From a virus, in the UHGV virus genome UHGV-1558314: 64,000 nucleotides of DNA. The stretch is one strand, 5' to 3'. The notes beneath the pieces are model-generated. The model was not told the origin of the DNA. It saw only the letters and a program-made list of their open reading frames with translations, and searched no databases. Below are positions 10,883 through 58,111 of the stretch, piece after piece. The translations under genes and the position numbers were made by a program. The stretch's first letter is position 1; the number at the start of each line of letters is the position of its first letter.

Positions 10883-10911
10883 ATTGTACAACAATGGGCA
10901 AAATTTTGCAT
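10883..10911 (-). promoter_or_regulatory. Sigma70-like promoter (ATGCAA-N17-TACAAT) for RNR
   Basis: Plus attgtacaac at 10883-10892, ttgcat at 10906-10911. Confidence 0.5.
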
Positions 10912-14293: not shown

Positions 14294-15949
14294 TTATGCA
14301 AGCAATGTTTGCAGCATGTAGCAGCCTTTTGCATATGCGACAATTGCTTTTGCAGGATTGTTCTTGATGTATGCAGGCAACTTGAGCCAAATCAGTGCTA
14401 CAAGAACTTTCTGTCGCAGCGTTAAATCAAGTTCATCAATGTTGTAGCCAATGACTTTTGCTCTGACATCGCCATCAACATAATCGAATTGCTGATATGC
14501 TGACTGATTGAATGCATCATAGCCAGACAAGCCATATGCAAACTTTGCAATGTCATAATCGATGTCACCAGTCATCTTGACGTCACCAAAGTAGCCTCTT
14601 GGGTCAATGAACATGCATTTTGATGAATCTGCACTGAACATTGTATTTGACGTATTCGGGTCACCATGAATGAATGACCAATTTTCGCATGCATAGTCAA
14701 TTGAATCTTCTTGTGACAAGAAGAATCTTAACTTGCTCATCAGTTCATCGAATGGCATCAATGCAATACCATTGAATGATTTGATGCCTGCTACAAGTGA
14801 CTTGACTTCAGCATATCTTGCAATAGTAGTCTCAATGTACTCTTTGCGCATTGCGTCAATCATTTGCTGTCTGCTAACTGGCCAAATCTCGTCATTGTCA
14901 AGATTACTTGCATGCAATTCATTGATTGACTGTTTGAATGTTGTCATGCAGCCACGAGCAATTGCAGCATATCTACGCTCAATATCAACTTTGTTGAGGA
15001 ACTGATGTACAGTCACTCCGTTAATTTTCGACATTTTGATGAAGTCTTCACCAGTTTCAAATATCGATGGAATGACTGTCGATTCTGCATTCATAGCATG
15101 ACGATACCATTCTTGTTCTTTCTGAATGAGTGCCAAACCACGAGCATTTGTAGCAGATTTCGTAACAATATCGCCATCAATGCTAATGCTATTGAAATAC
15201 CGCACTTCATTATCACGTGCAGCCTTGACTGCTTCACTGACAAATGCTCCGCGTTCGCCATATGAATGACAGCCAGCAATTTCATATCTGTCTACAAATG
15301 TAACGTTGGTCATTAAATCAGCAAAATCAGCATTGTTATCATTATGCTGCATATCAATGACATTGTTATGAAACGCTGCAGGTACATAATATGCGCCAAC
15401 AATGCCACTATGATATGTAGACTCATACAAATGGTCGAGCACATATGCTTCTGCATCTGCATAAGACCCTACTTTGTAGAATGCATCAGTAGGAATGAGA
15501 TGCAGTCTGCAATCAATGTCATTTGACGTGCAACAAGTTATGCAGCCATTTTTGAATTCTGCAAACGGCAATTCAATATCGCCAAGCCACACATCAGACC
15601 AATGATAGAATACATTGCAATCACCAATGTTGTTAGCAACAAACATTGCTACATCTGCGCATGCTTTTGCTGAGCCATCAGCTTTGTCATGCACAATAGT
15701 TGATAACTTGATATCTGGTGCAAATGCTGCAGCATGTTCATGAATCATTGCTACATGAGTGTCATTTGCACATGCAACAATGACTTCATCAAACTGTCGA
15801 GCATAGGATGTCAAAATCTTTGCAAGCACTGTTTGTTTGCCTGCATTTACAAGAGTTTTAGGGATGTAATTGTTGCCGGTCATTGTTGACATGCGAGTGC
15901 CCAACCCACATGCAATGATTGCTAACACATTTGGATATTGATGAGACAT
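14294..15949 (-). CDS. Bifunctional sugar-phosphate nucleotidyltransferase / APH-family kinase
   Basis: N-terminal VLAIIACGLGTRMSTMTGNNYIPKTLVNAGKQ (NTP-transferase G-loop); C-terminal FIHGDPNTSN and CMFIDPRG (APH/choline-kinase Brenner motifs); ATG at 15947-15949. Confidence 0.8.
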   Translation of the reverse strand: MSHQYPNVLAIIACGLGTRMSTMTGNNYIPKTLVNAGKQTVLAKILTSYARQFDEVIVACANDTHVAMIHEHAAAFAPDIKLSTIVHDKADGSAKACADVAMFVANNIGDCNVFYHWSDVWLGDIELPFAEFKNGCITCCTSNDIDCRLHLIPTDAFYKVGSYADAEAYVLDHLYESTYHSGIVGAYYVPAAFHNNVIDMQHNDNNADFADLMTNVTFVDRYEIAGCHSYGERGAFVSEAVKAARDNEVRYFNSISIDGDIVTKSATNARGLALIQKEQEWYRHAMNAESTVIPSIFETGEDFIKMSKINGVTVHQFLNKVDIERRYAAIARGCMTTFKQSINELHASNLDNDEIWPVSRQQMIDAMRKEYIETTIARYAEVKSLVAGIKSFNGIALMPFDELMSKLRFFLSQEDSIDYACENWSFIHGDPNTSNTMFSADSSKCMFIDPRGYFGDVKMTGDIDYDIAKFAYGLSGYDAFNQSAYQQFDYVDGDVRAKVIGYNIDELDLTLRQKVLVALIWLKLPAYIKNNPAKAIVAYAKGCYMLQTLLA

Positions 15950-15971
15950 TGTGTAGTATTGTTTATATGAA

Positions 15972-16000
15972 TATTGTACAATATGCATTGCTATTTTGCA
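15972..16000 (-). promoter_or_regulatory. Sigma70-like promoter (TTGCAA-N17-TACAAT)
   Basis: Plus attgtacaat at 15972-15981, ttgcaa at 15995-16000. Confidence 0.55.
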
Positions 16001-16248
16001 AGATGACAATGCTTACGCCATACTGCAATTTCAACATCTGTAGCAAAATCAAAGTGCAAGCCATGCAATTGTTTCATGTCATATTGACGTCTTGCAATAT
16101 ACTTATTGCCAACTCGCTCAACAACAGAACCAATTTCTACTACATTTTTAGAATGTCGTGGCTCATGTAATGGCACTCTGAATATGTATCTGCCATCTAA
16201 TGTTGACATTATGTCACCATTGTCAATTATGCCTGTTTGCCTGCTCAT
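15991..16248 (-). CDS. Hypothetical small protein (85 aa)
   Basis: ORF track only. Confidence 0.4.
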   Translation of the reverse strand: MSRQTGIIDNGDIMSTLDGRYIFRVPLHEPRHSKNVVEIGSVVERVGNKYIARRQYDMKQLHGLHFDFATDVEIAVWRKHCHLAK

Positions 16249-16263
16249 TGTTAAAGCATCAAG

Positions 16264-16938
16264 TTATTTTTGAATGTCTACAAGTTCTGCTGCAATTCTA
16301 TCATATGCTAGCATGTGCTTAATTGCGTCATCAAGCAGCTTGTTAAATTCAAGATACTGCTGCAGCACTTTGTCATTCTGCAATGACTGCTCAAGCGCAG
16401 CATAATCACCTGCAAACGGGCGATTCATTGACAGGCCAAAGTTCTTCGCACATTTAGCATAAAATGCATTGTACTCTGCAGCATCAATTGGTGTCGCGTC
16501 ATGAGCTTTAAGCGCACTTTCACTGAGCAACGGGATGGTTTGCTTTCTGCAACGAGTAAACTCGTCTTTGTCAACATACAACACAGAACAACGAACGACA
16601 TTGTCTTCTGCATTCATACCACCTGTCAACAAATCCATTTCCCAATCGAAGCAAATGTTGTAGATGTACAGCATCACAGTTCGATGCTTGTTATCAACAA
16701 ACTTCCAATATCGAGACTTTTTGCAGATAGCTTTGATATGCTGCAAGTCATGCATAAACTTATCATGCGATATCGCATCAAAGCGAGGCAATGATTTGTT
16801 GTCAATGAATGTGTTTGCTGCATCTGCACAACGTTTGAATTCTGCTTGATGCATATTCAGCTCTTCTATGCGCTTTGCTACAAGCGCTTCATATTCTGCT
16901 TTTGCAAGAGCAAGTCTTGCTTCATACAAACTTTGCAT
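16264..16938 (-). CDS. Hypothetical protein (224 aa)
   Basis: ORF track; no motif. Confidence 0.6.
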   Translation of the reverse strand: MQSLYEARLALAKAEYEALVAKRIEELNMHQAEFKRCADAANTFIDNKSLPRFDAISHDKFMHDLQHIKAICKKSRYWKFVDNKHRTVMLYIYNICFDWEMDLLTGGMNAEDNVVRCSVLYVDKDEFTRCRKQTIPLLSESALKAHDATPIDAAEYNAFYAKCAKNFGLSMNRPFAGDYAALEQSLQNDKVLQQYLEFNKLLDDAIKHMLAYDRIAAELVDIQK

Positions 16939-16963
16939 ATTTGTGTATGTTTATGAGTTTCTG

Positions 16964-17420
16964 TTAAAATTTGCCATCTGCTACTTGAAAACATTGATAG
17001 CCAAGCTCTCGCCATTTAGCGACCATGGAATCGCGGTCTTCAAGCACAAATGCAATTTGTTGCAGTTCGTCTTCAGACAATGTTTCTACAAGCAATTCAG
17101 GTTTGACAAGCGTATCATGACGTTTATCACCATCTTTTCGCATAAGAATTTGCGGATTGACGATTCTGCCATCTGTATGCTGTGCAAGCCAAACTTCTGT
17201 CATCTGTCTGCAGCTTTCACGACGACCTGTGCAGAATATGATTCTGTAGCCAACTTGCTGCAAATCGCAAAGCAAGTCAAGCACAGTCATAATAGGCTTG
17301 TCTTCATAACAGTGTGCATAAAATGCATCCCCAATCTTTGTTTGATTGTTGAAGATATTTTAGACGGTCGCCAACTTTTGAAATTGTTCCGTCAATGTCG
17401 CATATGATGATATTTGCCAT
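16964..17420 (-). CDS. HAD-superfamily phosphatase interrupted by an apparent frameshift (two ORF fragments)
   Basis: N-fragment from ATG 17418-17420: MANIIICDIDGTISKVGDRLKYLQQSNKDWG... (DxDGT motif I); C-fragment 16964-17290 has IIFCTGRRE, RKDGDKR, EDRD; frames differ, shift localises to C4 run at 17329-17332. Confidence 0.6.
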
Positions 17421-17439
17421 GATATGTATGCTTATGAAA

Positions 17440-17463
17440 GGAAGAGCTCAATTGAGCTCTTCC
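17440..17463 (-). terminator. Palindromic hairpin ggaagagctcaattgagctcttcc
   Basis: 24-nt perfect palindrome downstream of gene 17495..18367. Confidence 0.5.
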
Positions 17464-17494
17464 TGATAGTCAACTTGATAAACCTCTACGAAAA

Positions 17495-18367
17495 TCAAGC
17501 CTGACTACTTTTGTTGATTACGAGATACTTGTATCGTTCTTTGATTGTGATGTTCTTTGATTTTGCTGCCTCGAGTTCTTTACGTTCCTTGGAGGAATAG
17601 TTGAACTTGATGTAGTCGGAGAACAATTCGGGCTTATCTGCTACTTCATTGTTCTTGACTTCTTTTACAAGAGTTTGCTGAAACTCATTGATTGTAGTGA
17701 AACCAAGGAATGACTGGAACTTGTTAAGCGGAAACAACTTATCTGTGTTGTCCTCGAATGTCGGGAATTCGTCGGAATACGTAATTTCGATTTGGTCTAC
17801 GAAATATCTAAGTTTTTCCCAAGGTTCCTTGCCAATGAGGAGAATGTTCTGATGGTCAAGTTTTTCCTCGAACATTTCCAGGAGGCATTCGTATGATTTT
17901 ACGAGACGAACTCCAGGATATGTAATTGATGCAATTGAACGAGGTTTGTGAGTTGTCTTGACTTCTTTATTGTACGTTTCCTCATCAATGCAATAGATGT
18001 ATCGCTTGACCTTGTCGTATTCTTTCGGAAGATAGTTGTTGTCAAGGAATTGCTTGTCAACTACAATGAAACTGAAAGGATAGAGTTCATTGAATCGTTG
18101 ACGAAGCTGTTCTGTTGCAAGGAAGAAATGCGAGCCATCTTTTGCTGCAAATTCCATATTTGAATTGCATCCTGCATATGCAATGTATCTGTTTCGCTTC
18201 CATTTAAGGAATCGACTTACCAGATTCTTTTCGAAGATATCCTTGTATTTGAAGTTAGTGTCCCAGTACTCCTTAACAATTCCATCTTGCATTTTTCTTG
18301 ACAATTTTGAATTGTCTACCGGCCTATCAGTAAAAACTGAAGGTTTGTTTGCATTGTATAATCCCAT
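17495..18367 (-). CDS. Hypothetical Lys-rich protein (290 aa), late-promoter class
   Basis: ATG at 18365-18367 (MGLYNANKPSVF) preceded by AACCTCTACTACA; ORF-track N-terminal extension crosses the promoter. Confidence 0.7.
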   Translation of the reverse strand: MGLYNANKPSVFTDRPVDNSKLSRKMQDGIVKEYWDTNFKYKDIFEKNLVSRFLKWKRNRYIAYAGCNSNMEFAAKDGSHFFLATEQLRQRFNELYPFSFIVVDKQFLDNNYLPKEYDKVKRYIYCIDEETYNKEVKTTHKPRSIASITYPGVRLVKSYECLLEMFEEKLDHQNILLIGKEPWEKLRYFVDQIEITYSDEFPTFEDNTDKLFPLNKFQSFLGFTTINEFQQTLVKEVKNNEVADKPELFSDYIKFNYSSKERKELEAAKSKNITIKERYKYLVINKSSQA

Positions 18368-18461
18368 TGTAGTAGAGGTTTTTGTTAAATTTATTATATA
18401 TGTATATATTACAACGACAGTGCAAAATTTGCACTGTCGTAGCATAAAAGTTTACACATTT

Positions 18462-18806
18462 TTACAAATATGAGTACAGTTTGTTCATAACTCGTTCAAT
18501 TGCAAATTCAACACCATATTGCAACAACTGTTCAGTGCTAAATGTCTTTGCTGCATGTGCATGCGCAACAATATGCTTTGTCTGTGCATATAATATCCAA
18601 GTATCAGTTGGCCTGTCATAAGTTACTGTCAGTCTACATGTTTGCAACACAAACTCTTGACTAAAGTATTCTCTTCGCCAAAACTCTGGTTCTGCAATAT
18701 GCAAATCAAGCCAAGCAAACTCAAACAGAATTTGTTTAAGTTGACGTTGATGCTTACGTTCAGCACGATATGAGTTGCTGAATAGCCATTTAATGATGTT
18801 CATCAT
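18462..18806 (-). CDS. Hypothetical protein (about 114 aa)
   Basis: ATGA start/stop overlap with upstream SIS gene. Confidence 0.5.
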   Translation of the reverse strand: MMNIIKWLFSNSYRAERKHQRQLKQILFEFAWLDLHIAEPEFWRREYFSQEFVLQTCRLTVTYDRPTDTWILYAQTKHIVAHAHAAKTFSTEQLLQYGVEFAIERVMNKLYSYL

Positions 18807-19519
18807 TTGCAATCATTATGCTGAGTATGAATTGCGTTGCCCTGTGAATCCAAGCGAATCGCAGTTTGCATTGCGACTTCAGATTGTGTTTGTTCTGCTT
18901 GACGAGCTCTTTGAAGTCCACCTCCAGGGTGACATGTGTAAAATCTATCAAAGTCAGTGCCAAGCTGTTCAGCAACAGACAACATGATGTTATCACCAAT
19001 GAGCTGAGATGCTAGCAGAGAATTCGTCGGAATTCGTGGATTGCGTGAGTCCTCGTCAATTGCTGGCAATGATACAAGCAAGTCTGCCCAAGCATTCATA
19101 TCAGTGACCTTGCCACCAGCAAAGTTAATGCCGATGATTTGGCAATTCGGTGCAAGCAATTCACGATGTTCACGAAGATATGTCATTGCAGTTGCAAGTT
19201 CAGATGTGTTGCCTGTTTTGCTGAATGCTACAATAACATCATTGTTTCGAATCATACCAAAGTCACCATGCATTGCATGTACTGCATCAAAGAACGCAGC
19301 ATCAAGTGAAATTGAATAGCATGTTGCAGCAAGTTTTTCACAGCAATGCACATTTTTGCCAATGCCAGTGAACAATACTTTGCCATCAGACTTCAATGCA
19401 TTTGCAATAATGTCTGCTGCAATGCCAAGAACATCATATTGCGCATCTGAAATGTTGTTGTGCCATGCTACAAGCGACTCGACTGATGCAGCAATGCCTT
19501 TGTGTACAAGTGTTTTCAT
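18803..19519 (-). CDS. SIS-domain sugar-phosphate isomerase (arabinose-5-phosphate isomerase KpsF/GutQ-like, no CBS domains)
   Basis: GKVLFTGIGKN...KLAATCYSISLDAAFFDAVHAMHGDFGMI...DVIVAFSKTGNTSEL matches the KpsF/KdsD SIS signature. Confidence 0.8.
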   Translation of the reverse strand: MKTLVHKGIAASVESLVAWHNNISDAQYDVLGIAADIIANALKSDGKVLFTGIGKNVHCCEKLAATCYSISLDAAFFDAVHAMHGDFGMIRNNDVIVAFSKTGNTSELATAMTYLREHRELLAPNCQIIGINFAGGKVTDMNAWADLLVSLPAIDEDSRNPRIPTNSLLASQLIGDNIMLSVAEQLGTDFDRFYTCHPGGGLQRARQAEQTQSEVAMQTAIRLDSQGNAIHTQHNDCK

Positions 19520-19537
19520 TTTGTGATGTTTGAAGGT

Positions 19538-20221
19538 TCAAAGAAACTTGAGTTTTGACAGCATTTCAGTGTCTTGTTCTGTGTTGATGCCAAGCTCTTG
19601 CATGACATCAAGCAACGCAGACCATAATTGCTCATATGATTGCCCACCCCCATTCATGACAACTGCATCAACGAACAACTCGTCGATGTGCTGCTCACTT
19701 GAATGATTGATGTTTTGCATGACATCATCATTAACAATCTTTATGAGTTTGAAGCCTCTTGAGCGCAATGCGGTCGCTTCATTTGGATATCGACAGTCAC
19801 CAACACAAATGAGAGCTTCATTATGACAGTTGTCAAGTCGATACAACAAACTATTGACAAAGAAGTCTTCACCATACAGTTTCTTGAGCACATCTGAAAC
19901 ATCAAGATGCACATTGCGAATCGATGAACCTGCAAACTCTACAAAGTGTTTTTGTTTGAATGCATTGTTATGCAAGTCTTGCAAATTGTAGCCCAGTGTA
20001 CTTGCAATAAATGCTTTCAGTGGCTTTGCAAAGCACTCATATGCAAGATTGCAGCCACATGACCAGTATGGATTTGCTTCAATTTGCTGCAAAGTTGATG
20101 TGTAAATGCTATCAATTACAGTGAACTTGCATTTAGTCATGACTCGAATCATCGCCCAAGCCAAATCTTTGCCTACGCCTGCATGACCAACAAGCGCAAT
20201 TTTTGTTATGTCATCATTCAT
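19538..20221 (-). CDS. P-loop kinase, deoxynucleoside monophosphate kinase-like
   Basis: Walker A-like IALVGHAGVGKD at N-terminus; size and position resemble T4 gp1-type dNMP kinases; function tentative. Confidence 0.6.
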   Translation of the reverse strand: MNDDITKIALVGHAGVGKDLAWAMIRVMTKCKFTVIDSIYTSTLQQIEANPYWSCGCNLAYECFAKPLKAFIASTLGYNLQDLHNNAFKQKHFVEFAGSSIRNVHLDVSDVLKKLYGEDFFVNSLLYRLDNCHNEALICVGDCRYPNEATALRSRGFKLIKIVNDDVMQNINHSSEQHIDELFVDAVVMNGGGQSYEQLWSALLDVMQELGINTEQDTEMLSKLKFL

Positions 20222-51369: not shown

Positions 51370-52662
51370 CTACAACAATGACGGCACTCGTTGAGTTTCA
51401 AGTGGGTCGCTGACATTGATGCCTGTGTATGCAACAAGTCGTTGTATTGGGCCAAGTACGAGTTTTTCGAACATGAGTCGTTTGTTCATTGGCGGCACAT
51501 CTGGCATATACTTCGGTGTCGGCATTTCGCCTGGTGCAAAGCCAAATGCATCGCAATATTGACGAGAGCCAATTGGGATATTTGACAAATCTGACTTTGC
51601 TCTGTCAACAAAGTAGTAGAACACTCGACCGCCTTCAATCAATGGGTATCGTGTTTCCAATCCATGAGCTTTTACAAGACGATTATGCCAACAACATGCC
51701 CTGTACTGAGGCAGTACACCTTTTGCTAACTGCCATTCGCCATCATAGCTTAACACATAGTCATGATACTTGTTTGCATTGACATATGCACAAAGTTTTT
51801 CCAAGTCTTGCTCAGCTTCAAAGCGTTTCCATAATTTCTGTATGAGCTTTGGATATGTCGCAGAAGTCAATTCACCTCTGAACATTTTTTTGAATGCATA
51901 ATCAAGCATTTGCCTAACAAGCATTGATGAGCCTGTTTGAATAAGTTCGATGCCCTTACCTTGAATATGCTCAGTAGGGTCTTCAAATACTCGACCATCT
52001 ACATATATTTGAGACTTCAAATACTTTTTCTTTTGGGCAAATAATGCAGTATCAGAAATCGTCTCAAGGTCGAACATTAGCACAGAATCTCCATGACGCT
52101 TTGCAAGGTCATTTGCATATGACCTATTGAACAGTTCTTCCATACGATATTTGAATATCGCAAGAATCAAGTCATACCAATTTTTGCCTGTGTAACCAAT
52201 TGACTTAACTGTCGGCTCAAAGTGAATGTACAAAGAGTCTGTGTCAATATACAGCACTTTGTCTTCATAGGGTTCTTGCTTTGGCGACACAGACAAATCA
52301 AAATTGCCTTTCAATTTGGGGTCATTGCGCAGCTTTTCATGCAATTCATAATCACACCACCATTTATTGTTGAGATAGTCATTTGCTACTCGTTCGCCAA
52401 AGTGAATGAAGTTACGCCCTTCTGCAGTAATTGATTCTGCAACTGCCATATTGAAGAAGTGATAGAATCGATTACTTGTCGCACCATAAATACTGTTCCT
52501 TAGTGTTTTGAACGTCACCTGCAATGACGCATGTTTAAGCGACTCTTGTATTGCAAAGCCACGTAATTCAAATAGACGCTCAGTAGACAACTGACTCAAA
52601 TCGCCAGTTAAATCTACTCCATCTATTTCAATTTTTGACATGTCTATCTGAGCTTCTGCCAT
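51370..52662 (-). CDS. Family-B DNA polymerase, C-terminal part (motifs B and C)
   Basis: FKTLRNSIYGA (KxxxNSxYG) and LYIDTDSLYI (DTDS). Confidence 0.9.
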   Translation of the reverse strand: MAEAQIDMSKIEIDGVDLTGDLSQLSTERLFELRGFAIQESLKHASLQVTFKTLRNSIYGATSNRFYHFFNMAVAESITAEGRNFIHFGERVANDYLNNKWWCDYELHEKLRNDPKLKGNFDLSVSPKQEPYEDKVLYIDTDSLYIHFEPTVKSIGYTGKNWYDLILAIFKYRMEELFNRSYANDLAKRHGDSVLMFDLETISDTALFAQKKKYLKSQIYVDGRVFEDPTEHIQGKGIELIQTGSSMLVRQMLDYAFKKMFRGELTSATYPKLIQKLWKRFEAEQDLEKLCAYVNANKYHDYVLSYDGEWQLAKGVLPQYRACCWHNRLVKAHGLETRYPLIEGGRVFYYFVDRAKSDLSNIPIGSRQYCDAFGFAPGEMPTPKYMPDVPPMNKRLMFEKLVLGPIQRLVAYTGINVSDPLETQRVPSLL

Positions 52663-52683
52663 AAGGTATCTTATTTAATTATT

Positions 52684-52712
52684 ATTGTACAACACACATT
52701 GCAATTTTGCAA
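52684..52712 (-). promoter_or_regulatory. Sigma70-like promoter (TTGCAA-N17-TACAAT)
   Basis: Plus attgtacaac at 52684-52693, ttgcaa at 52707-52712. Confidence 0.55.
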
Positions 52713-52726
52713 TATGTGTGTTAAAC

Positions 52727-52762
52727 AAAAATGCAGCAGCAGAACATCTGCTGCTGCATCGG
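52727..52762 (-). terminator. Rho-independent terminator
   Basis: aaacaaaa atgcagcagcag aacat ctgctgctgcat. Confidence 0.6.
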
Positions 52763-52801
52763 CAGGTATCTTCACATGTATTTGAGTTGATTACGATGTG
52801 A

Positions 52802-53629
52802 TTAGAATGGCAGGTCACCATCGTCACCTGCAGCGCCAAATTCAGCTGCAATGTCATATACCAACGTCATTGCGATTCGCAAATCGCGCTTCTTAGACTT
52901 CAGGCGCATGATATCATGACCAGAATTGTTTGTGATGACTGAACATTCAAACTCTTCATTGCCATCAATAAATGACAACATTGATTTGTGAATTGTGATT
53001 GGCGATAAATCAGATGGGTAATTTGCATCAATCACATATTCAAAGTTGTTGTTCTTGGCAATTAGTCCTCGTTCAGTCGTACGAATCTCAATGCCGGGCA
53101 ATTCCTTATCACCAGTATTCAATGAGCCATACGATGACATGATGCCAAAGTGATTTGACGTCAAATCGAGTTTTCTTAGATTTGTTGTGCTGTCAAACAA
53201 CATTGACATATCATTGTCAGACAGCTCAAAGTAGCCAAGTGATGGCATTGAACAAACCTGATTGATTTTGAGCTGATTGTTTGAGATTACAATGAGCTCT
53301 GCAATTGTATCTGTGCCAATTTGTTTGACATAGATTTCAATCATTGCAGATGAGCCAAATGCAGCAAGTACTCGATTGTTAAACTGTGTGCCGTTGTAAA
53401 TGAGCGCCTTGACTGTGACATCTTTGAGCGTCGACTCATAATGCTCACAAATATCAAGAACATTGAGCGTCTGTGATTTTACAAAGCTGCTGTTGCCAGC
53501 ATCAGTTCTGATTCGCTGGTCATTAAGTGAAAAGCTAAGCTTGCCATCGCACTTTAATGATGATGCAAACAATGCTCGCAGCATATCAATGTTTGCATTG
53601 CGTAACGTAATTTTGTTCAAAGTTTCCAT
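52802..53629 (-). CDS. Hypothetical protein (275 aa) with SSB-like acidic C-terminal tail
   Basis: C-terminus ...GAAGDDGDLPF resembles the DDDIPF SSB tail; body not recognisably OB-fold; function unknown. Confidence 0.65.
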   Translation of the reverse strand: METLNKITLRNANIDMLRALFASSLKCDGKLSFSLNDQRIRTDAGNSSFVKSQTLNVLDICEHYESTLKDVTVKALIYNGTQFNNRVLAAFGSSAMIEIYVKQIGTDTIAELIVISNNQLKINQVCSMPSLGYFELSDNDMSMLFDSTTNLRKLDLTSNHFGIMSSYGSLNTGDKELPGIEIRTTERGLIAKNNNFEYVIDANYPSDLSPITIHKSMLSFIDGNEEFECSVITNNSGHDIMRLKSKKRDLRIAMTLVYDIAAEFGAAGDDGDLPF

Positions 53630-53697
53630 CTTGTATCTATGTTGTTGATTTTCAATTTAATATATTGAACAACATTTGTTGACATTTTGCAACATTG

Positions 53698-54072
53698 TCA
53701 TCGATTGTCGCCTGACCCATGCAGTACGCCTCGTAATTTTCGAGACTGTAGTTTCTGAATGTTAAGCTGACAAATGTCAGTTAAGCTGTAGCCCAAATCA
53801 TGTGCAAGAGTTGCAGCATACCACATGACATCGCTAAGCTCTTTTGCGATTTCCTTGCGAATGTCTTCATTGTCAAAATCACCATTCTTGTCTCGAATGA
53901 CTTTTTTGACTTTGTCTGCAACTTCGCCTGCTTCACCCGTCAAGCCAAGCGTTGGATAGACAATTGCAGCTGATTTAGGATACACTGCGCTATCAAGTGC
54001 AGCAGTCTGATATTCATCAATGGTTGAAATACAAGTGTGGTCAATTACACCATGTTCATCTCGTTTAAGCAT
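53698..54072 (-). CDS. mazG: MazG-like nucleotide pyrophosphohydrolase
   Basis: LTGEAGEVADKVKK ... KELSDVMWYAATLAHDLGYSL. Confidence 0.75.
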   Translation of the reverse strand: MLKRDEHGVIDHTCISTIDEYQTAALDSAVYPKSAAIVYPTLGLTGEAGEVADKVKKVIRDKNGDFDNEDIRKEIAKELSDVMWYAATLAHDLGYSLTDICQLNIQKLQSRKLRGVLHGSGDNR

Positions 54073-54073
54073 A

Positions 54074-54565
54074 TCATTTACGTTTTTGTTTGACTCTTAA
54101 TCGTTTTTGCATAAATGCTCTTGTAGCTTCACCAAAAGCCATCTCGTCTCGTTCGCCACCACAAAGCTTTGCAAGCTTATTGAATGTGTCTTGGTCAATC
54201 ATTGTGTACGTTGAGTTGTTGACCACATGCAATGCAAACTGAATCAGCGGTGCGCCTGGCTGCAAGCAGAACGGCTCTTTGCCCGCATTGTACACTGCAA
54301 GATGAATCTCGCCATGATAGTCTGAATCTACAAACTCACTTGTTTTGATGATAAGATGATTTCGTGAAATGCCCGACTTATTGTAGGCAATCAATGCATG
54401 ACAGGCAGGCACAAGTGCTTTGATGCCAGATGGAATTGCAATGCCCTCACCAGGTTGCAGCATTGTTTGCACAAAATCATTGGGTATGCAAAAGTCCCAT
54501 GCGCCAGATTCTGCTGTTGACTTAAAAGGACTTTCTACATTTCTGCATTTTGCAAAGAATAACAT
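54074..54565 (-). CDS. dUTPase / dCTP deaminase superfamily protein
   Basis: GAWDFC (motif 1-like), IAIPSGIKAL, VDSDYHGEI (motif 3), PGAPLIQFAL (motif 4-like). Confidence 0.75.
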   Translation of the reverse strand: MLFFAKCRNVESPFKSTAESGAWDFCIPNDFVQTMLQPGEGIAIPSGIKALVPACHALIAYNKSGISRNHLIIKTSEFVDSDYHGEIHLAVYNAGKEPFCLQPGAPLIQFALHVVNNSTYTMIDQDTFNKLAKLCGGERDEMAFGEATRAFMQKRLRVKQKRK

Positions 54566-54588
54566 ATTAAGTATGTGTTTGTATGTTG

Positions 54589-54939
54589 TTAGTACATTTC
54601 TCGTTTAACAAGAGCTTTGCGTTTTGAGCGTAACCCTGCCCTATTACGTAATTCTACTGACCAATCACGAATCATTTGCCATGCAATCCCACCACGTTGA
54701 ATACCACCGTGCTTGAACATTTCATTGCAAATACCTTGAATAAACACCGCATCAGACTTTGTCAATGCGTCAACAATTTGACCATGGTTGTCTTCTGTCT
54801 TGACATCATTACAGAGCTTAAGTTCATCTACTGAAAGTTCGCCAAGCAGCTCATAGTAGTATATGAGAGCTTTGCGTGCGGCAATTGCTTTTCTTGAATT
54901 GCCAGAATAAGACAAAGTTACATGTTTGCTCATATTCAA
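54589..54939 (-). CDS. Hypothetical protein (116 aa)
   Basis: ORF track; no motif. Confidence 0.55.
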   Translation of the reverse strand: MNMSKHVTLSYSGNSRKAIAARKALIYYYELLGELSVDELKLCNDVKTEDNHGQIVDALTKSDAVFIQGICNEMFKHGGIQRGGIAWQMIRDWSVELRNRAGLRSKRKALVKREMY

Positions 54940-54959
54940 TTATTGTTATTATATGTTGA

Positions 54960-54988
54960 TATTGTACAACATGTGTTAACTTTTTGCA
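54960..54988 (-). promoter_or_regulatory. Sigma70-like promoter (ATGCAA-N17-TACAAT)
   Basis: Plus attgtacaac at 54960-54969, ttgcat at 54983-54988. Confidence 0.5.
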
Positions 54989-56175
54989 TGACCACAATCA
55001 TACACCGCAACATAGCCAGCATCAATCATCTCTTGCTCATCTTGTCCGCAATCTTCAATATGTTCTTTTGTCTTCAAATGACACCAGTGTTTGCGAATTG
55101 TTGACTTGTCATCTGACAATTGCGGATTGAGTGCGAAGTCAGTTGAGTCTACTGGTTCACCTGCAAGATGCTTTCTAATGACATCAATGACAACATCAAA
55201 TGGCATCCAGTCAAACACTGTAATGCAAGTGTAGCTGTGTTTGATAGCAAGTTGTGTTTTGTTAAAATGGTTGTCATATGGTCGTTGCCAATTATGATTT
55301 GCATTGAACACAATATTTGCAAAACTACGCGTGCTATTATGAGAAATAGTTGGGTTAAGTTCAATTAGCAACTTATGCGATTTGCAAACAATGTCATATG
55401 ACAATGACGTGTTCTCAAATGTAAATTCTTGCTCAAAATGCACATCAAGGTTATCAAATAGCATGTTAAGCCTTGTGCATATTTTTGTATTGTGTGCAGA
55501 CTTTGCTTTAGATTTTGCTCTGCATTGAGGCAATTGGCATGGCCACACTACACCATGACGTGACAATGTTGTTGCACGAATTGCGTCAAGATTCGTTGAT
55601 GGATTGCCATATCGAGCTATTCGAGTTTGCCTTGCTTTGTCTATATTGCCTGGGCCTGCATTGCCCCATCGCTGCAACTTTGTTTGTCGAGCTTGTTCAT
55701 GATTGCTGTAATATGGGTCTCCATATCGTTCAAGCTTTGTTTGCTTTAACTTACTCATGTCGCCAAGCCCATTGCCATACTTAGCACGCTTTGTTTCTAT
55801 GCCTTTCTTTAGATTGCCTCGTTTGTTGCCATATTTTGCAATGTTGTGTGCATTACGTTTTTCAATGTCACCAAACCCATTGCCATATCGTGCAAATTTT
55901 GTTGCTTGCGCTTTTTCAAAATTGACTGCTAATGTGCCATAACGAGCATACTTAGTTGCTTTGCCCTTATCAACGACTTCTTTACGATGCAATGCAGCTT
56001 CAACACCATATTTTCGCAAATTTGTAATTTTTGCATTGTATCGTCGTCTAATTGTTGCATGAGTGTTGTTACGAGACCCTGTTCTGACATATTCAGTTGC
56101 AGCAAGTTCAGCATCACGTAACTGCTCAAGTTCTGCAATTCGTTGTTCAAGTTCAGCGCCTACAAGTGGTTTCAT
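54976..56175 (-). CDS. Homing-endonuclease-like protein, paralog 5, between the two polymerase ORFs
   Basis: Seven about 17-aa repeats with (K/R)YG core; LLIELNPTISHNSTRSF ... SYTCITVFDW ... VAVYDCGH. Confidence 0.75.
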   Translation of the reverse strand: MKPLVGAELEQRIAELEQLRDAELAATEYVRTGSRNNTHATIRRRYNAKITNLRKYGVEAALHRKEVVDKGKATKYARYGTLAVNFEKAQATKFARYGNGFGDIEKRNAHNIAKYGNKRGNLKKGIETKRAKYGNGLGDMSKLKQTKLERYGDPYYSNHEQARQTKLQRWGNAGPGNIDKARQTRIARYGNPSTNLDAIRATTLSRHGVVWPCQLPQCRAKSKAKSAHNTKICTRLNMLFDNLDVHFEQEFTFENTSLSYDIVCKSHKLLIELNPTISHNSTRSFANIVFNANHNWQRPYDNHFNKTQLAIKHSYTCITVFDWMPFDVVIDVIRKHLAGEPVDSTDFALNPQLSDDKSTIRKHWCHLKTKEHIEDCGQDEQEMIDAGYVAVYDCGHAKS

Positions 56176-56183
56176 GTGTTGTT

Positions 56184-57689
56184 TTACAATTTGATTGCGC
56201 CTCTACGAGCAAGCTCTTCTTCAATCAATCGAACATGATTGTTAGAATACCAGAACTGAATTTTTTTGTGATAATTACGCTTGTCTCCAAGTTCTTCCTG
56301 TACTGCTTTGTACATGCTTTTTTCATGATTGTCATACAAGCAGTCATTAACGGACACAAAGTACTCTGGCAATGACTTGTAATGCGCAATTTCATCAGGA
56401 TTTGTCAGACGTCTGATAAAGTTATCCGGTGATACATTGCATGATTTCATTGAACTTGGATAGAGTGAATTTGCATCAACACAAACAACTTTATGAGCCC
56501 AATGGTTAAATGGTTGCTTCACAAAGCCACCTTCAAATGCATGCACAACATTTTCTGGACCGCCTTGAGCACATACGACTTTGCCACCATATTTGTTGTA
56601 CAAATATGTCATCATGACGCCCTCAGATTGCTTAACTGGGCCTTGACAGTGGTTCATATCAATGTTTGACACATTTGACAAGCCCATCACATTTGATATC
56701 AAGTCAGTTTTTGCAGCAATCATCGCATTGACCATCGTATCGACAGCATTATATGCAATGAACGTGCATGGATGATACAAATACAGCTCTTTAAGTGTAC
56801 AATCATAGGGCAGCTTACCTACACCGAACATACGATGTGCAATATAGTCAAGTCGCAATGACTCTTTTTGCCACACTGAATAGTCGTATGTGTCCATGAG
56901 CTGCATGTAGTCATCAATGTACTTGTGATATGGCATACCATTGCCCCAGACAGTTCTGCCAACTGGAGATGCCAATGCTAAATCAATATTGTGCATTGCG
57001 CATCGATTTTTGACATAGATGTTGTCGAAGCCATTGATGTTCCAGCCTGTCAATGCAGGAATGTTTTTGAAGAGCTTAGTCACCCAAAAATGCAACAATT
57101 CATGCTCATTTGCATGTTGAAAGATTTTGACAGTTGGATGTTCTTTCAAATACGCAGCAAAGCAATGTTGACCCATGTACTCTTGAATGATGCCATTGAC
57201 AAACTCAAATGCATCATCCAGTGTTGGGTTTTGTTTGCCACAGCTTTTGCGCAAATCATCATCATTCAACAAGTCAACAGTAGTCTGAATGACACAATTG
57301 CATTGTTCATCGCATGTACTTATTGCATTAATGGGCATTTCAGCTTTGTCAGGCTTTGGAAAGCCATTGCCAATTTCAGTCTCAATATCGTAAAAGTATA
57401 ACTTTGGTCTACGATAAGCAAACAATTCAACTTTGTCAGCTTCAGGCAATTCAAATAAGAATTGCAGCAAGTCAAATTGATTGAATCGTTTTGCTGTGAC
57501 TCGAGTCACAGGCAATTTGCGCCAATCTTGAATATCTGCATATTGCGGCTCTACATGGTCTGATATTTGCCATACTGGAAATTGATATGGCTGTTCACAG
57601 ACTGGGTATGTTTTGATGTCAATGCCACCTTGCTCATTAACGTATGAAACTTCAATGCCATGTGACAAATATGCTACGTCGACAATCAT
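56184..57689 (-). CDS. Family-B DNA polymerase, N-terminal part (3'-5' exonuclease motifs + polymerase motif A)
   Basis: LYFYDIETE (Exo I), NINGFDNIYV (Exo II), YNAVDTMV (Exo III), VCVDANSLYPSS (motif A); ATG at 57687-57689. Confidence 0.9.
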   Translation of the reverse strand: MIVDVAYLSHGIEVSYVNEQGGIDIKTYPVCEQPYQFPVWQISDHVEPQYADIQDWRKLPVTRVTAKRFNQFDLLQFLFELPEADKVELFAYRRPKLYFYDIETEIGNGFPKPDKAEMPINAISTCDEQCNCVIQTTVDLLNDDDLRKSCGKQNPTLDDAFEFVNGIIQEYMGQHCFAAYLKEHPTVKIFQHANEHELLHFWVTKLFKNIPALTGWNINGFDNIYVKNRCAMHNIDLALASPVGRTVWGNGMPYHKYIDDYMQLMDTYDYSVWQKESLRLDYIAHRMFGVGKLPYDCTLKELYLYHPCTFIAYNAVDTMVNAMIAAKTDLISNVMGLSNVSNIDMNHCQGPVKQSEGVMMTYLYNKYGGKVVCAQGGPENVVHAFEGGFVKQPFNHWAHKVVCVDANSLYPSSMKSCNVSPDNFIRRLTNPDEIAHYKSLPEYFVSVNDCLYDNHEKSMYKAVQEELGDKRNYHKKIQFWYSNNHVRLIEEELARRGAIKL

Positions 57690-57700
57690 ATTATTATCTT

Positions 57701-58111
57701 TTAGAATAGAGATATTGTACAACAATTTGATTCAGGTTGCCATTCTACAATATGCGCATCAAAGTGTTTGTTAAGCCAATGTGCAAGTATGTGTCTATGA
57801 CAAAATGCAGATGGTCTGCACCAACATAACAATACAATGTCTCGTTCGCCTGCAAAAATCTTTATGCGATGCAGCATCAAACTTATCTGTGACAATGCAG
57901 CGTCAAGTTTTGCTGCATATTGCTCTGCATATTGTGCATTGTCAAGCAAGCCTGCTTTATGCAAACGAACAAGTGACATGTAATCAGGCATGACGTCAGT
58001 CCATGTAAAATCTGCTATGAAGCCCTTAGGCTTTGTTGCAGACACTTGAACAAGAAATGCGTTATCAGGCAGATGCCTGCATGCATAATATGAAGTCAAG
58101 ATTCTTGTCAT
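57701..58111 (-). CDS. Hypothetical protein (136 aa), DUF488-like
   Basis: DIVLLCWCRPSAFCHRHILAHWL resembles the conserved DUF488 core; tentative. Confidence 0.55.
   Translation of the reverse strand: MTRILTSYYACRHLPDNAFLVQVSATKPKGFIADFTWTDVMPDYMSLVRLHKAGLLDNAQYAEQYAAKLDAALSQISLMLHRIKIFAGERDIVLLCWCRPSAFCHRHILAHWLNKHFDAHIVEWQPESNCCTISLF
57714..57742 (-). promoter_or_regulatory. Sigma70-like promoter (-10 TACAAT) for polymerase N-part
   Basis: Plus attgtacaac at 57714-57723; -35-like ttgcca at 57737-57742. Confidence 0.45.

What the first reader, a model, noticed from the sequence alone, without database searches (positions are those of the whole stretch)
53698..54565. Adjacent MazG-like and dUTPase-superfamily genes inside the polymerase split
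Two nucleotide pyrophosphohydrolase-type genes sit side by side. In phages that replace a canonical base, such enzymes often remove the canonical dNTP (for example dCTPase in hmC phages), which would fit the sugar-module hypothesis.
Basis: inference. Interest (0 to 1): 0.45.

Follow-up and report, generated by a model that had tools for sequence, protein, structure and literature searches.

The report
Polymerase-linked dUTPase variant plus phage MazG
Two small nucleotide-cleaving enzyme genes lie between the two halves of a giant phage's DNA polymerase gene: one is an ordinary, recently acquired phage MazG, and the other is a conserved, remodelled offshoot of dUTPase with an unknown substrate that may help keep a normal base out of sugar-modified DNA.

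Summary
ORF 53698-54072(-) is a MazG and ORF 54074-54565(-) has a trimeric-dUTPase fold. They are 1 nt apart and sit inside a split family-B polymerase.

The two genes have different histories. The dUTPase-like gene holds this position in five sister lineages. MazG is present only here and in the closest relative.

The dUTPase-like protein keeps motif III (D80-x-D82-Y83), S64, Q109, D24, R139 and F144. Its triphosphate-binding positions are remodelled: motif I AG[IL] to GAW, motif IV Lys/Arg to Pro, motif V FGSTG to FGEAT, plus an extra C-terminal helix. Two sister lineages also carry a canonical dUTPase, on contigs I infer to belong to the same genomes, so the variant is probably not the housekeeping dUTPase.

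The window also carries a dNMP kinase, an arabinose-5-phosphate isomerase and an AfhE-like nucleotidyltransferase-kinase. These are homologous to the RB69/DLP3 cytosine-arabinosylation pathway, which needs a dCTPase. No thymidylate-synthase homologue or gp56 homologue is visible in the 64 kb.

Rating: new variant of a known kind, moderate interest.

The parts
54074..54565 (-). 163-aa protein with a trimeric-dUTPase fold, a derived member of the 'NKSG' subfamily. Kept: D24, K63-S64, D80-x-D82-Y83, Q109, R139, F144-G145. Changed: motif I GAW, motif IV Pro106, motif V FGEAT, and an extra basic C-terminal helix (146-162).
   Evidence: Pfam, PHROG and NCBIfam scans. Alignments and motif census. AF2 model with pLDDT 69, whose top 50 PDB fold matches are all trimeric dUTPases. 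Conserved position in relatives. dN/dS well below 1, with dS saturated.
53698..54072 (-). 124-aa small phage MazG (all-alpha NTP pyrophosphohydrolase). The acidic metal ligands E47, E50, E78 and D81 are present. It starts 1 nt after the dUTPase-like stop codon.
   Evidence: PF03819 and phrog_229. It is 43-57% identical to MazG of roseophage SIO1, mycobacteriophage L5 and Streptomyces phages, and 31-40% identical to cyanomyovirus MazG. Among relatives it is found only in L008.
56184..57725 (-). Family-B DNA polymerase, N-terminal/exonuclease half, extending through motif A (…DANSLYPS…).
   Evidence: PF03104 and phrog_2062. The same split is seen in MA9V-2, PTm5 and metagenomic relatives.
51370..52662 (-). 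Family-B DNA polymerase, C-terminal half (motifs B and C onward).
   Evidence: PF00136 and phrog_1918.
52802..53629 (-). Conserved 275-aa protein of unknown function that lies between the polymerase halves in every member of the wider clade.
   Evidence: BLASTP to L003, L006, L009 and L011 (39-44% identity), and to PTm5_ORF-235 and MA9V2_194. No Pfam, PHROG or NCBIfam hit. hhalign against the RB69 gp45 clamp was negative.
54589..54939 (-). 116-aa ORF of unknown function upstream of the dUTPase-like gene. It is shared only with the closest relative, L008.
   Evidence: BLASTP, 57% identity to L008_558. No family hit.
54976..56175 (-). 399-aa homing-endonuclease-like ORF (DUF7487, 'KYGN/RYGN' repeats) inserted directly after the polymerase N-terminal half. 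It is absent at this site in L008.
   Evidence: PF24308 and phrog_3339. L008 gene order.
52730..52760 (-). Terminator-like hairpin (14-bp stem) with a T-run, between the 275-aa gene and the polymerase C-terminal half.
   Evidence: Consensus scan. This is a pattern match only.
14294..20221 (-). Context module: dNMP kinase (19538-20221), arabinose-5-phosphate isomerase (18803-19519), conserved unknown 316-aa protein (17495-18445), HAD/PNK-phosphatase-like 108-aa ORF (16964-17290), and AfhE-like NTP-transferase+kinase (14294-16009).
   Evidence: Pfam, PHROG and NCBIfam scans. tblastn and phmmer to RB69 ORF052/053/055, JS98, Thanatos, MA9V-2 and PTm5. Literature: PMC13326640.

Best explanation
Shown. 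ORF 54074-54565 encodes a trimeric-dUTPase-fold deoxynucleotide pyrophosphatase. It is a derived offshoot of a large, uncharacterised phage subfamily with the motif pattern NKSG / K[IL]xQF / RGxGGFGSTG. It is a fixed resident of the split polymerase operon in a clade of large phages. That clade is related to the ~220-kb phages MA9V, PTm1 and PAU, which infect Bacteroidota. Clade members also carry an AfhE-type sugar-nucleotide module and a dNMP kinase. The protein keeps the base/sugar-binding and catalytic residues. Selection has fixed a new arrangement at the positions that select the triphosphate (motifs I, IV and V), plus an added C-terminal helix.

Inferred. Two sister lineages also keep a fully canonical dUTPase elsewhere in what I infer to be the same genome. 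The variant is therefore probably not the housekeeping dUTPase. I think it most likely hydrolyses another deoxypyrimidine nucleotide during replication. The best candidate is dCTP/dCDP to dCMP, which would make it a functional analogue of T4/RB69 gp56. In that role it would keep unmodified C out of the DNA and feed the modification pathway.

MazG. ORF 53698-54072 is a typical small phage MazG with intact metal ligands. It entered this lineage recently and sits 1 nt after the dUTPase-like stop, a spacing compatible with translational coupling. It most likely adds broad (d)NTP pool cleaning. It may cover dUTP, since no canonical dUTPase is visible in this window.
For: - Fold and family.
- Retained residues: D24, S64, D80, D82, Y83, Q109, R139 and G145 are invariant in 13 homologues.
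- Clade-specific changes: A-G-[IL] to G-A-W, K(94%) to P106, S(88-90%) to E146, G to T148. All are invariant or nearly invariant within the clade.
- Selection: dN/dS is 0.08-0.33, although dS is saturated.
- Position: the gene lies between the polymerase N-terminal half and the 275-aa gene in loci L003, L006, L008, L009/L010 and L011/L012. An NKSG-type dUTPase also abuts the polymerase N-terminal half in the 462-kb phage LR756500.
- Coexistence with a canonical dUTPase: L025 and L022 each carry a dUTPase with all five motifs. L025 comes from the same samples as L006. Their GC contents are 32.7% and 32.6% and their tetranucleotide correlation is r=0.993. L003 and L022 correlate at r=0.991, and the within-window control is 0.985. 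The two canonical dUTPases are 60% identical to each other, and the two variants are 71% identical to each other. This suggests long-term coexistence.
- Sugar module: it is homologous to the cytosine-arabinosylation pathway, which requires a dCTPase. A DNMK gene is clustered with AfhE and the 316-aa protein in three lineages.
- Cytosine-type enzyme in a relative: MA9V-2 has a second thymidylate-synthase homologue with the cytosine-type N177D change.
- MazG.
Against: - No substrate can be read from the sequence.
- Uracil selection in dUTPases uses main-chain atoms of the motif III hairpin (PMC12524310). Motif III is conserved here, so dUTP may still be the substrate.
- The remodelled positions concern phosphate handling, not obviously base handling.
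- No thymidylate-synthase homologue, DNA glycosyltransferase or gp56 homologue was found in the 64 kb. Base replacement in this phage is therefore itself unproven.
- Assigning the canonical dUTPase and the variant to one genome rests on composition and sample co-occurrence, not on a contiguous sequence. The two samples may be two assemblies of the same material.
- MA9V-2 has the sugar module and no dUTPase-like gene at all.
- I know of no trimeric-fold dCTPase (my own knowledge).
- The AF2 model is only moderately confident (pLDDT 69).
Confidence: 0.4

Rival explanations
1. Both genes are ordinary housekeeping auxiliaries. The 163-aa protein is simply this phage's dUTPase (dUTP to dUMP + PPi) with unusual but tolerated motif variants. 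MazG is a generic house-cleaning NTP pyrophosphatase. Neither is linked to base replacement, and the gap between the polymerase halves is just a permissive insertion site.
For: - Pfam and PHROG assign the protein to dUTPase.
- The best PDB sequence and fold matches are all dUTPases.
- The motif III Asp and Tyr, the motif IV Gln and the motif V Arg and Phe are retained.
- The parent NKSG subfamily has a canonical motif V and also sits next to the polymerase N-terminal half in LR756500.
- The gap between the polymerase halves holds variable cargo: a homing endonuclease here, TnpB in MA9V-2, and Vsr in PTm5.
- This MazG family is common in phages not known to carry modified bases.
- No canonical dUTPase is seen in this window.
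Against: - A canonical dUTPase coexists with the variant in two sister lineages, by inference.
- Motifs I, IV and V show coordinated, clade-invariant remodelling rather than drift.
- The NCBIfam dut score is 48 bits against a cut-off of 102.55.
Confidence: 0.35
2. MazG, not the dUTPase-like protein, removes the canonical dNTP (dCTP or dGTP). This would match the all-alpha enzymes T4 gp56, DCTPP1 and MazZ. The dUTPase-like protein would then be the ordinary dUTPase.
For: - T4/T2 dCTPase belongs to the same all-alpha superfamily as MazG (PMC12524310).
- RB69 and DLP3 dCTPase models resemble MazG-like pyrophosphatases (PMC13326640).
- S-PM2 MazG prefers dGTP and dCTP (PMC6850273).
- MazZ is a (d)GTP-specific MazG in Z-genome phages (PMC8342488).
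- MA9V-2, which has the sugar module, carries a MazG-like gene and no dUTPase.
Against: - This MazG is absent from four related lineages that carry the AfhE module.
- It is only 31-40% identical to cyanomyovirus MazG.
- It shows only weak local similarity to RB69 gp56 (pairwise E=0.007).
- phmmer finds no relationship to MA9V2_260.
- No PurZ-like or DatZ-like hit appeared among the 48 window ORFs scanned with Pfam.
Confidence: 0.12
3. The dUTPase-like protein has lost efficient catalysis. It acts as a nucleotide-sensing or structural partner of the split polymerase or replisome, or as a regulator, like the moonlighting Duts of staphylococcal and T5-like phages. The new basic C-terminal helix would be the interaction surface.
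For: - The motif IV basic residue is lost, and the motif V Ser and Thr that contact the gamma-phosphate are replaced.
- There is a lineage-specific basic C-terminal helix.
- The gene is strictly linked to the polymerase genes.
- Phage Duts with non-enzymatic roles are known (PMC12524310).
Against: The catalytic Asp80, Ser64, Gln109, Asp24, Arg139 and Phe144 are all invariant. That pattern is what one expects of an active hydrolase. No interaction data exist.
Confidence: 0.1

Closest known systems
Homotrimeric dUTPase (EC 3.6.1.23; E. coli Dut, phage T5 Dut)
   Same: The predicted fold is the same jelly-roll. Motif III (V-D-S-D-Y-H-G), the motif II Ser, the motif IV Gln, the motif I Asp and the motif V Arg/Phe/Gly are retained. 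The best sequence and fold matches in the PDB are dUTPases.
   Different: - Motif II has Lys in place of Arg, which is true of the whole NKSG subfamily.
- Motif I is AG[IL] to GAW.
- Motif IV is Arg/Lys to Pro.
- Motif V is FG(S/H)(T/S)G to FGEAT.
- There is an insertion of about 8 aa before motif V and a C-terminal helix of 15-23 aa.
- The NCBIfam score is below the cut-off.
- It probably coexists with a canonical dUTPase in sister lineages.
T4/RB69 gp56 dCTPase-dUTPase
   Same: It would play the same role in the proposed pathway: removing a canonical pyrimidine dNTP and supplying dNMP in a phage with an RB69-like arabinose module. The MazG ORF shares the all-alpha superfamily with gp56.
   Different: gp56 is all-alpha, whereas the conserved candidate here has a beta-rich trimeric-dUTPase fold. 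The window's MazG shows only weak local similarity to RB69 gp56 (E=0.007). phmmer with RB69 gp56 as query found no homologue in the related loci or in MA9V-2.
Small phage MazG (phrog_229; roseophage SIO1, mycobacteriophage L5 gp37, cyanophage S-PM2 MazG)
   Same: ORF 53698-54072 is a full-length member of this family, 43-57% identical to the SIO1, L5 and Streptomyces phage proteins. The E-x-x-E … E-x-x-D metal ligands are present.
   Different: Nothing notable apart from its location inside a split polymerase, 1 nt after a dUTPase-like gene. The substrate preference of S-PM2 MazG (dGTP/dCTP) cannot be transferred at 31-40% identity.
MazZ of Z-genome phages (S-2L, PhiVC8)
   Same: It is a MazG-fold enzyme that reshapes the dNTP pool for base replacement.
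   Different: [quoted passage not shown] No such genes were detected among the 48 window ORFs scanned with Pfam, and this MazG is not conserved in the clade.
dCTP deaminase / bifunctional DCD-DUT
   Same: It belongs to the same superfamily, and there are weak Pfam and NCBIfam cross-hits (PF22769 1e-6; TIGR02274 2e-6).
   Different: Motif III is the dUTPase type (D-S-D-Y-H-G), not D-P-G-W-x-G. The position of the catalytic Glu138 is Ala. None of the top 50 fold matches is a deaminase.
RB69/DLP3/HY126 arabinosyl-5-hydroxycytosine pathway (PMC13326640)
   Same: The window has homologues of the arabinose-5-phosphate isomerase and of the bifunctional AfhE-type kinase/nucleotidyltransferase. It also has a HAD-like fragment and a T4-type dNMP kinase in one cluster.
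   Different: No thymidylate-synthase homologue, GT-B arabinosyltransferase or gp56 homologue is visible in the 64 kb. The conserved partner of AfhE here is an unknown 316-aa protein. The phage backbone is a jumbo myovirus related to phages of Bacteroidota, not a member of Straboviridae.

Membership tests
Homotrimeric dUTPase | Jelly-roll beta fold of trimeric dUTPases | tested here: met
   The AF2 model (pLDDT 69) has trimeric dUTPases as all of its top 50 Foldseek PDB matches, with probability 1.00 and TM about 0.6-0.7. The trimeric state itself was not modelled.
Homotrimeric dUTPase | Pfam PF00692 gathering score | tested here: met
   40.2 bits against a cut-off of 22.
Homotrimeric dUTPase | NCBIfam dut (TIGR00576 / NF001862) curated cut-off | tested here: not met
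   48.1 bits against 102.55, and 46.8 bits against 103.
Homotrimeric dUTPase | Motif III with catalytic Asp and deoxyribose-gating Tyr (I-D-x-D-Y-x-G) | tested here: met
   V79-D80-S81-D82-Y83-H84-G85. D80, D82, Y83 and G85 are invariant in 13 homologues.
Homotrimeric dUTPase | Motif II Arg-Ser and motif IV Arg…Gln, which bind the triphosphate | tested here: not met
   Motif II is N-K63-S64-G, with Lys in place of Arg, as in 95% of the NKSG subfamily. The motif IV basic residue is replaced by Pro106 throughout the clade, and Gln109 is kept.
Homotrimeric dUTPase | Motif V, R-G-x-x-G-F-G-S/H-T/S-G | tested here: not met
   The sequence is R139-D-E-M-A-F144-G145-E146-A147-T148. Arg, Phe and Gly are kept, and Ser, Thr and Gly are replaced. 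It is followed by a 15-aa basic helix.
Homotrimeric dUTPase | Specific hydrolysis of dUTP to dUMP + PPi | not testable with these tools
   This needs an enzyme assay.
dCTP deaminase / DCD-DUT | D-P-G-[WF]-x-G motif and catalytic Glu (E. coli Glu138) | tested here: not met
MazG (all-alpha NTP pyrophosphohydrolase, PF03819) | Pfam gathering score and the four acidic metal ligands (E-x-x-E … E-x-x-D) | tested here: met
   36.1 bits against a cut-off of 22 and phrog_229 at 1.4e-35. E47, E50, E78 and D81 were read directly from the translation.
T4-type gp56 dCTPase | Sequence membership in the gp56 family | tested here: not met
   The window's MazG against RB69 gp56 gives only a 70-aa local match at 21% identity, pairwise E=0.007. 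phmmer with gp56 as query found no hit in the related loci or in MA9V-2.
MazZ (Z-genome cluster) | Co-conservation with purZ and datZ | tested here: not met
   No adenylosuccinate-synthetase-like or HD dATPase hit among the 48 window ORFs scanned with Pfam. The rest of the genome was not seen.
Afh-type cytosine arabinosylation system (context) | Arabinose-5-phosphate isomerase plus bifunctional kinase/nucleotidyltransferase (AfhE) | tested here: met
   phrog_5670 at 2e-28 and KpsF/GutQ at 3e-21. phrog_4098 at 3e-76. RB69 ORF055 at 4e-17 and ORF052 at 6e-30. Relatives carry NTP_transferase with an APH or ABC1 kinase domain.
Afh-type cytosine arabinosylation system (context) | Thymidylate-synthase homologue making 5-hydroxy- or 5-hydroxymethyl-dCMP (N177D, D169N) | tested here: not met
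   phmmer with RB69 gp48 and with the MA9V-2 thymidylate-synthase homologues found none in the window. It could lie outside the 64 kb. MA9V-2 has a homologue with N177D and D169 retained.
Afh-type cytosine arabinosylation system (context) | DNA arabinosyltransferase (GT-B) | tested here: inconclusive
   No glycosyltransferase hit among the scanned ORFs. The conserved 316-aa partner of AfhE has no Pfam or PDB match, and its AF2 model is unusable at pLDDT 44.

The most novel reading that the evidence does not exclude
The 163-aa protein would be the first trimeric-dUTPase-fold enzyme repurposed as a dCTP/dCDP pyrophosphatase. It would be the missing gp56 analogue of an arabinosyl-cytosine DNA hypermodification pathway in a clade of large, split-polymerase phages related to ~220-kb phages of Bacteroidota. 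It would be hard-wired into the polymerase operon and would work alongside a separate canonical dUTPase.
Probability: 0.22. Interest if true: 0.7.

Novelty: new variant of a known kind. Interest (0 to 1): 0.5.

Why it matters
Phages that fully replace a base must remove the canonical dNTP. The only well-known solutions are all-alpha enzymes (gp56, MazZ) and HD hydrolases (DatZ). A conserved, remodelled trimeric-dUTPase paralogue is tied to the replicative polymerase in a clade that also carries the RB69-type arabinose module. It is a concrete, cheaply testable candidate for a new solution.

It would also extend cytosine glycosylation from Straboviridae to large, uncultured jumbo phages. That matters for restriction and CRISPR evasion and for sequencing bias in viromes.

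Even if it proves to be a plain dUTPase, it would show which 'essential' phosphate-binding residues of dUTPase can be replaced.

Tried and rejected
- **Near-identical DNA.** Megablast of the polymerase locus against 50,697 phage records gave no match. An exact 38-mer from the window edge was not found in IMG/VR.
- **Reaching beyond the window.** Exact-protein look-ups of the two edge ORFs failed. The rest of this genome, and therefore any thymidylate-synthase or gp56 homologue outside the window, could not be inspected.
- **dCTP deaminase reading of the 163-aa protein.** Rejected. Motif III is the dUTPase type, the catalytic Glu is missing, and all top fold matches are dUTPases.
- **MazG as a gp56 or MazZ family member.** Rejected for membership (no purZ or datZ).
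- **MazG and the dUTPase-like gene as a conserved functional pair.** Rejected.
- **The 275-aa gene between the polymerase halves as the sliding clamp.** Not supported. hhalign against RB69 gp45 gave probability 0.7%.
- **Identity of the 316-aa partner of AfhE.** No Pfam or PDB hit, and the AF2 model has pLDDT 44, so it remains unknown.
- **The 224-aa ORF at 16264-16938.** No hit.
- **Sigma-70 promoter scan.** Uninformative. It found 32 sites against 21 expected, and Bacteroidota promoters are not covered by the scan.
- **DUF488 literature search.** Nothing usable.
Full report
**Observation**

The stated interval holds two minus-strand ORFs.
- ORF 53698-54072 (124 aa) passes the Pfam MazG threshold (36.1 bits against 22) and matches phrog_229 'MazG-like pyrophosphatase' at 1.4e-35.
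- ORF 54074-54565 (163 aa) passes the Pfam dUTPase threshold (40.2 bits against 22), has a weaker dCTP-deaminase cross-hit, and matches phrog_135.
- The dUTPase-like stop codon and the MazG ATG are 1 nt apart.

Both ORFs lie between the two halves of a family-B DNA polymerase. The N-terminal/exonuclease half is 56184-57725 and the C-terminal half is 51370-52662.

**The phage**

No phage record shares DNA with this locus at megablast level. Almost all genes in the window are on the minus strand. The window also encodes a T4-like portal, a gp23-like capsid protein, a sheath-like protein and an intein-containing ribonucleotide reductase.

The polymerase N-terminal half is closest to:
- Chryseobacterium phages MA9V-1 and MA9V-2 (36% identity);
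- Tenacibaculum phages PTm1 and PTm5;
- 'Sphingomonas' phage PAU;
- several metagenomic huge phages.

In MA9V-2 and PTm5 the polymerase is split at the same place, and variable cargo sits between the halves. A gene of about 275 aa (window 52802-53629) lies between the halves in every member examined. The split locus is therefore ancestral, and its interior is a site where genes come and go.

**Different histories of the two genes**

The dUTPase-like protein has only a handful of close relatives in a 5.8-billion-protein collection. I looked at the contigs that carry them. The gene lies between the polymerase N-terminal half and the 275-aa gene in five related lineages: L003/4/5, L006/7, L008, L009/10 and L011/12.

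MazG follows it only in the window and in the nearest relative, L008. In L008 the dUTPase-like protein is 77% identical to the window's, and the partial MazG is 62% identical. The other four lineages have unrelated small ORFs or nothing at that position. A six-frame search of all these loci found no other MazG.

The window's MazG is 43-57% identical to MazG of roseophage SIO1, mycobacteriophage L5, Pelagibacter phages and Streptomyces phages. It is 31-40% identical to cyanomyovirus MazG. It carries the four acidic ligands E47, E50, E78 and D81. It is an ordinary member of a widespread phage family and was acquired recently here.

**Anatomy of the dUTPase-like protein**

The best PDB sequence matches are E. 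coli Dut and relatives, and the alignments stop before motif V. An AF2 model (pLDDT 69) has trimeric dUTPases as its 50 best PDB fold matches, and no dCTP deaminase among them.

An exhaustive search of 1.84 billion cluster representatives found 1857 relatives. The 150 best were listed, and most of them carry the pattern N-K-S-G / K-[IL]-x-Q-F / R-G-x-G-G-F-G-S-T-G. The window's clade collapses to a single 50%-identity cluster.

I compared the clade with 140 outgroup sequences.
- **Kept:** D24, K63-S64, D80-x-D82-Y83-x-G85, Q109, R139, F144 and G145.
- **Motif I:** A-G-[IL] becomes G-A-W in all clade members.
- **Hairpin:** a Gly becomes T75.
- **Motif IV:** Lys (94% of the outgroup; Arg in E. 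coli) becomes P106.
- **Motif V:** Ser (88-90%) becomes E146 (Asn in one of seven members), Thr becomes A/M/C, and Gly becomes T148.
- **Additions:** an insertion of about 8 aa before motif V, and a C-terminal helix of 15-23 aa.

A recent review (PMC12524310) assigns roles to the motifs. Uracil and deoxyribose selection come from the motif III hairpin (main chain plus the Tyr). Triphosphate selection comes from motifs I, II and IV, and motif V clamps the beta- and gamma-phosphates and the base. The conserved part here is therefore the base, sugar and catalytic core, and the remodelled part is the phosphate-handling shell.

Pairwise dN/dS values are 0.08-0.33, with dS saturated, which indicates purifying selection. 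The protein falls far below NCBI's dUTPase naming cut-off, at 48 bits against 102.55. It lacks the dCTP-deaminase motif and the catalytic Glu. In the window's copy, C55 replaces a Gly that is nearly invariant, even in the 99%-identical protein P0001.

**The sugar module is real and has a named homologue**

Window 14294-20221 encodes five relevant genes:
- a T4-type dNMP kinase (phrog_139, 4e-25);
- an arabinose-5-phosphate isomerase (phrog_5670, 2e-28; KpsF/GutQ, 3e-21);
- a conserved unknown 316-aa protein;
- a HAD/PNK-phosphatase-like 108-aa ORF;
- a 571-aa NTP-transferase with a C-terminal kinase-like domain (phrog_4098, 3e-76).

The 571-aa protein aligns over its full length with proteins of JS98, Mosigvirus, Shewanella phage Thanatos, Acinetobacter phages, MA9V-2 and PTm5. 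RB69 ORF052/053 and ORF055 match it and the isomerase.

A 2026 NAR paper (PMC13326640) shows that this gene set makes UDP-arabinose in RB69, DLP3 and HY126. The steps are the isomerase, the bifunctional AfhE, and the HAD phosphatase AfhF. The UDP-arabinose is used to glycosylate 5-hydroxycytosine, which completely replaces cytosine. That pathway also uses a thymidylate-synthase homologue, a dNMP kinase, GT-B transferases and the gp56 dCTPase.

Several further observations bear on this.
- Some metagenomic homologues fuse NTP-transferase, HAD and SIS domains in one 905-aa protein.
- In three lineages the dNMP kinase clusters with the 316-aa protein and AfhE. This argues for a nucleotide- or DNA-directed role.
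- The complete genome of MA9V-2 contains a normal ThyA. It also contains a second thymidylate-synthase homologue with the cytosine-type N177D change and D169 retained, located next to a thymidylate-kinase-like gene.
- I found no thymidylate-synthase homologue, glycosyltransferase or gp56 homologue in the window, and I could not reach the rest of this genome.

Base replacement in this particular phage therefore remains an inference.

**The variant coexists with a canonical dUTPase**

Two AfhE-side contigs of relatives carry a dUTPase with all five canonical motifs: L022 10193-10855 and L025 14237-14689.

L025 comes from the same two samples as the polymerase-side contigs L006 and L007, although those may be two assemblies of one sample. 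L025 has GC content 32.7% and L006 has 32.6%. Their tetranucleotide correlation is 0.993. L003 pairs with L022 at 0.991. The within-window control is 0.985, and non-paired loci reach at most 0.965. The contig ends are also compatible: both polymerase-side contigs stop a few kb before the capsid gene, where the AfhE-side contigs begin.

The two canonical dUTPases are 60% identical to each other. The two variants are 71% identical to each other. A canonical dUTPase and a variant are only about 24% identical. I infer that both genes have coexisted in one genome since before these two lineages split. That is hard to reconcile with simple redundancy.

The window itself has no canonical dUTPase or remnant of one. 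It has MazG instead.

**Most likely mechanism**

Shown:
- The 163-aa protein is a trimeric-dUTPase-fold enzyme under purifying selection.
- It is fixed in the polymerase operon.
- Its catalytic core is intact and its phosphate site is rebuilt.

Inferred:
- It is not the housekeeping dUTPase.
- It hydrolyses another deoxypyrimidine nucleotide during replication. dCTP/dCDP is the best candidate, because the only characterised homologues of the sugar module serve cytosine replacement, which requires such an activity, and because no gp56 homologue is visible.
- MazG is a recent add-on for broad pool cleaning.

I put about 0.4 on this overall reading. Within it, I put about 0.22 on the specific dCTPase claim.

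The main rival is a plain dUTPase with tolerated motif variants plus a generic MazG, at about 0.35. Two other readings are less likely. The first is that MazG is the dCTPase. This is supported by the all-alpha precedent of gp56 and MazZ and contradicted by MazG's absence from four sister lineages. The second is that the protein is a non-catalytic replisome partner or regulator.

**Comparison with known systems, and novelty**

The MazG is already known biology. The dUTPase-like protein is a new variant of a known kind. It passes the fold and Pfam tests, and it fails the motif IV, motif V and NCBIfam tests for a standard dUTPase. It is not a dCTP deaminase.

It may work like gp56, but it is not a member of that family. 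The context (an Afh-type arabinose module in a jumbo phage related to phages of Bacteroidota) is not mentioned in the sections of the 2026 paper that I read, which concern Straboviridae, Pootjesviridae and selected metaviromic thymidylate-synthase homologues.

**Verdict**

Interest is moderate (0.5). Enzyme assays and complete genomes would settle the question quickly.

Noticed in passing
window 14294-20221 (-): Cluster of a dNMP kinase, an arabinose-5-phosphate isomerase, an unknown 316-aa protein, a HAD-like 108-aa ORF and an AfhE-like NTP-transferase+kinase. It is homologous to the RB69/DLP3/HY126 UDP-arabinose module used for cytosine hypermodification. No thymidylate-synthase homologue or glycosyltransferase was recognised nearby.
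   Followed up: partly
window 17495-18445 (-): A 316-aa protein (the true start is probably about 26 codons downstream). It is the most conserved partner of the AfhE-like gene in L021, L022, L024, L025 and MA9V2_230. It has no Pfam, PHROG or PDB match, and its AF2 model is unusable (pLDDT 44). It is a candidate for a new transferase or synthase in this pathway.
   Followed up: partly
window 51370-57725 (-); L001, L002: The family-B polymerase is split between motif A and motif B. The split, with a conserved gene of about 275 aa between the halves, is shared with MA9V-2, PTm5 and metagenomic relatives. The 275-aa protein has no detectable family, and hhalign against the gp45 clamp was negative.
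   Followed up: partly
window 54976-56175, 46786-47736, 27771-29060 (-): Three DUF7487 homing-endonuclease-like ORFs with 'KYGN/RYGN' repeats. The one after the polymerase N-terminal half is absent at the same site in the closest relative (L008). A similar repeat protein follows the polymerase N-terminal half in the 462-kb phage LR756500 (L023 8446-10389).
   Followed up: partly
window 57701-58111 (-); L021 7985-8419: A DUF488-N3a ('active DUF488-N3 subclade') gene sits immediately upstream of the polymerase N-terminal half. In relative L021 its homologue sits next to the 316-aa/AfhE cluster instead. This suggests a link to the same nucleotide or DNA-modification function.
   Followed up: no
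window 7620-10901 (-): Ribonucleotide reductase large subunit interrupted by an intein (PF14890). Relatives L022 and L025 have the same gene downstream of the AfhE region.
   Followed up: no
L025 14237-14689; L022 10193-10855: Fully canonical dUTPases (all five motifs) lie near the AfhE-like gene in two sister lineages. Sample co-occurrence, GC content and tetranucleotide composition indicate that those lineages also carry the derived dUTPase-like gene in the polymerase split.
   Followed up: yes
MA9V-2 (OR513085.1) 116922-118265; 213378-213878: MA9V2_146 is a 447-aa thymidylate-synthase homologue with the cytosine-type N177D change, D169 retained and a long C-terminal extension, next to a thymidylate-kinase-like gene. 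MA9V-2 also has a different MazG-like gene (MA9V2_260), and a search with the window's dUTPase-like protein found no homologue. This isolate may carry modified cytosine.
   Followed up: partly
P0033-P0037: 905-aa proteins fuse NTP_transferase, HAD, SIS and HAD domains. They look like single-chain versions of AfhE, AfhF and the arabinose-5-phosphate isomerase.
   Followed up: no
window 54403-54405 (codon 55 of the dUTPase-like ORF): The window's copy has Cys55 where all relatives have Gly, a nearly invariant position, including the 99%-identical P0001. This is either a strain variant or a sequencing error.
   Followed up: no
window 20708-21265 (-): A retroviral-type aspartyl-protease-like ORF (PF13650) is conserved next to a DUF5856 protein, just downstream of the capsid gene, in all relatives (L021, L022, L024, L025). 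This is unusual for a myovirus head module.
   Followed up: no
L008 914-1231: The closest relative has an extra 105-aa ORF between the homologue of the window's 116-aa ORF and the dUTPase-like gene. The window lacks it. Its N-terminus ('SYQKQA…') looks vaguely MazG-like, but no similarity was detected.
   Followed up: partly
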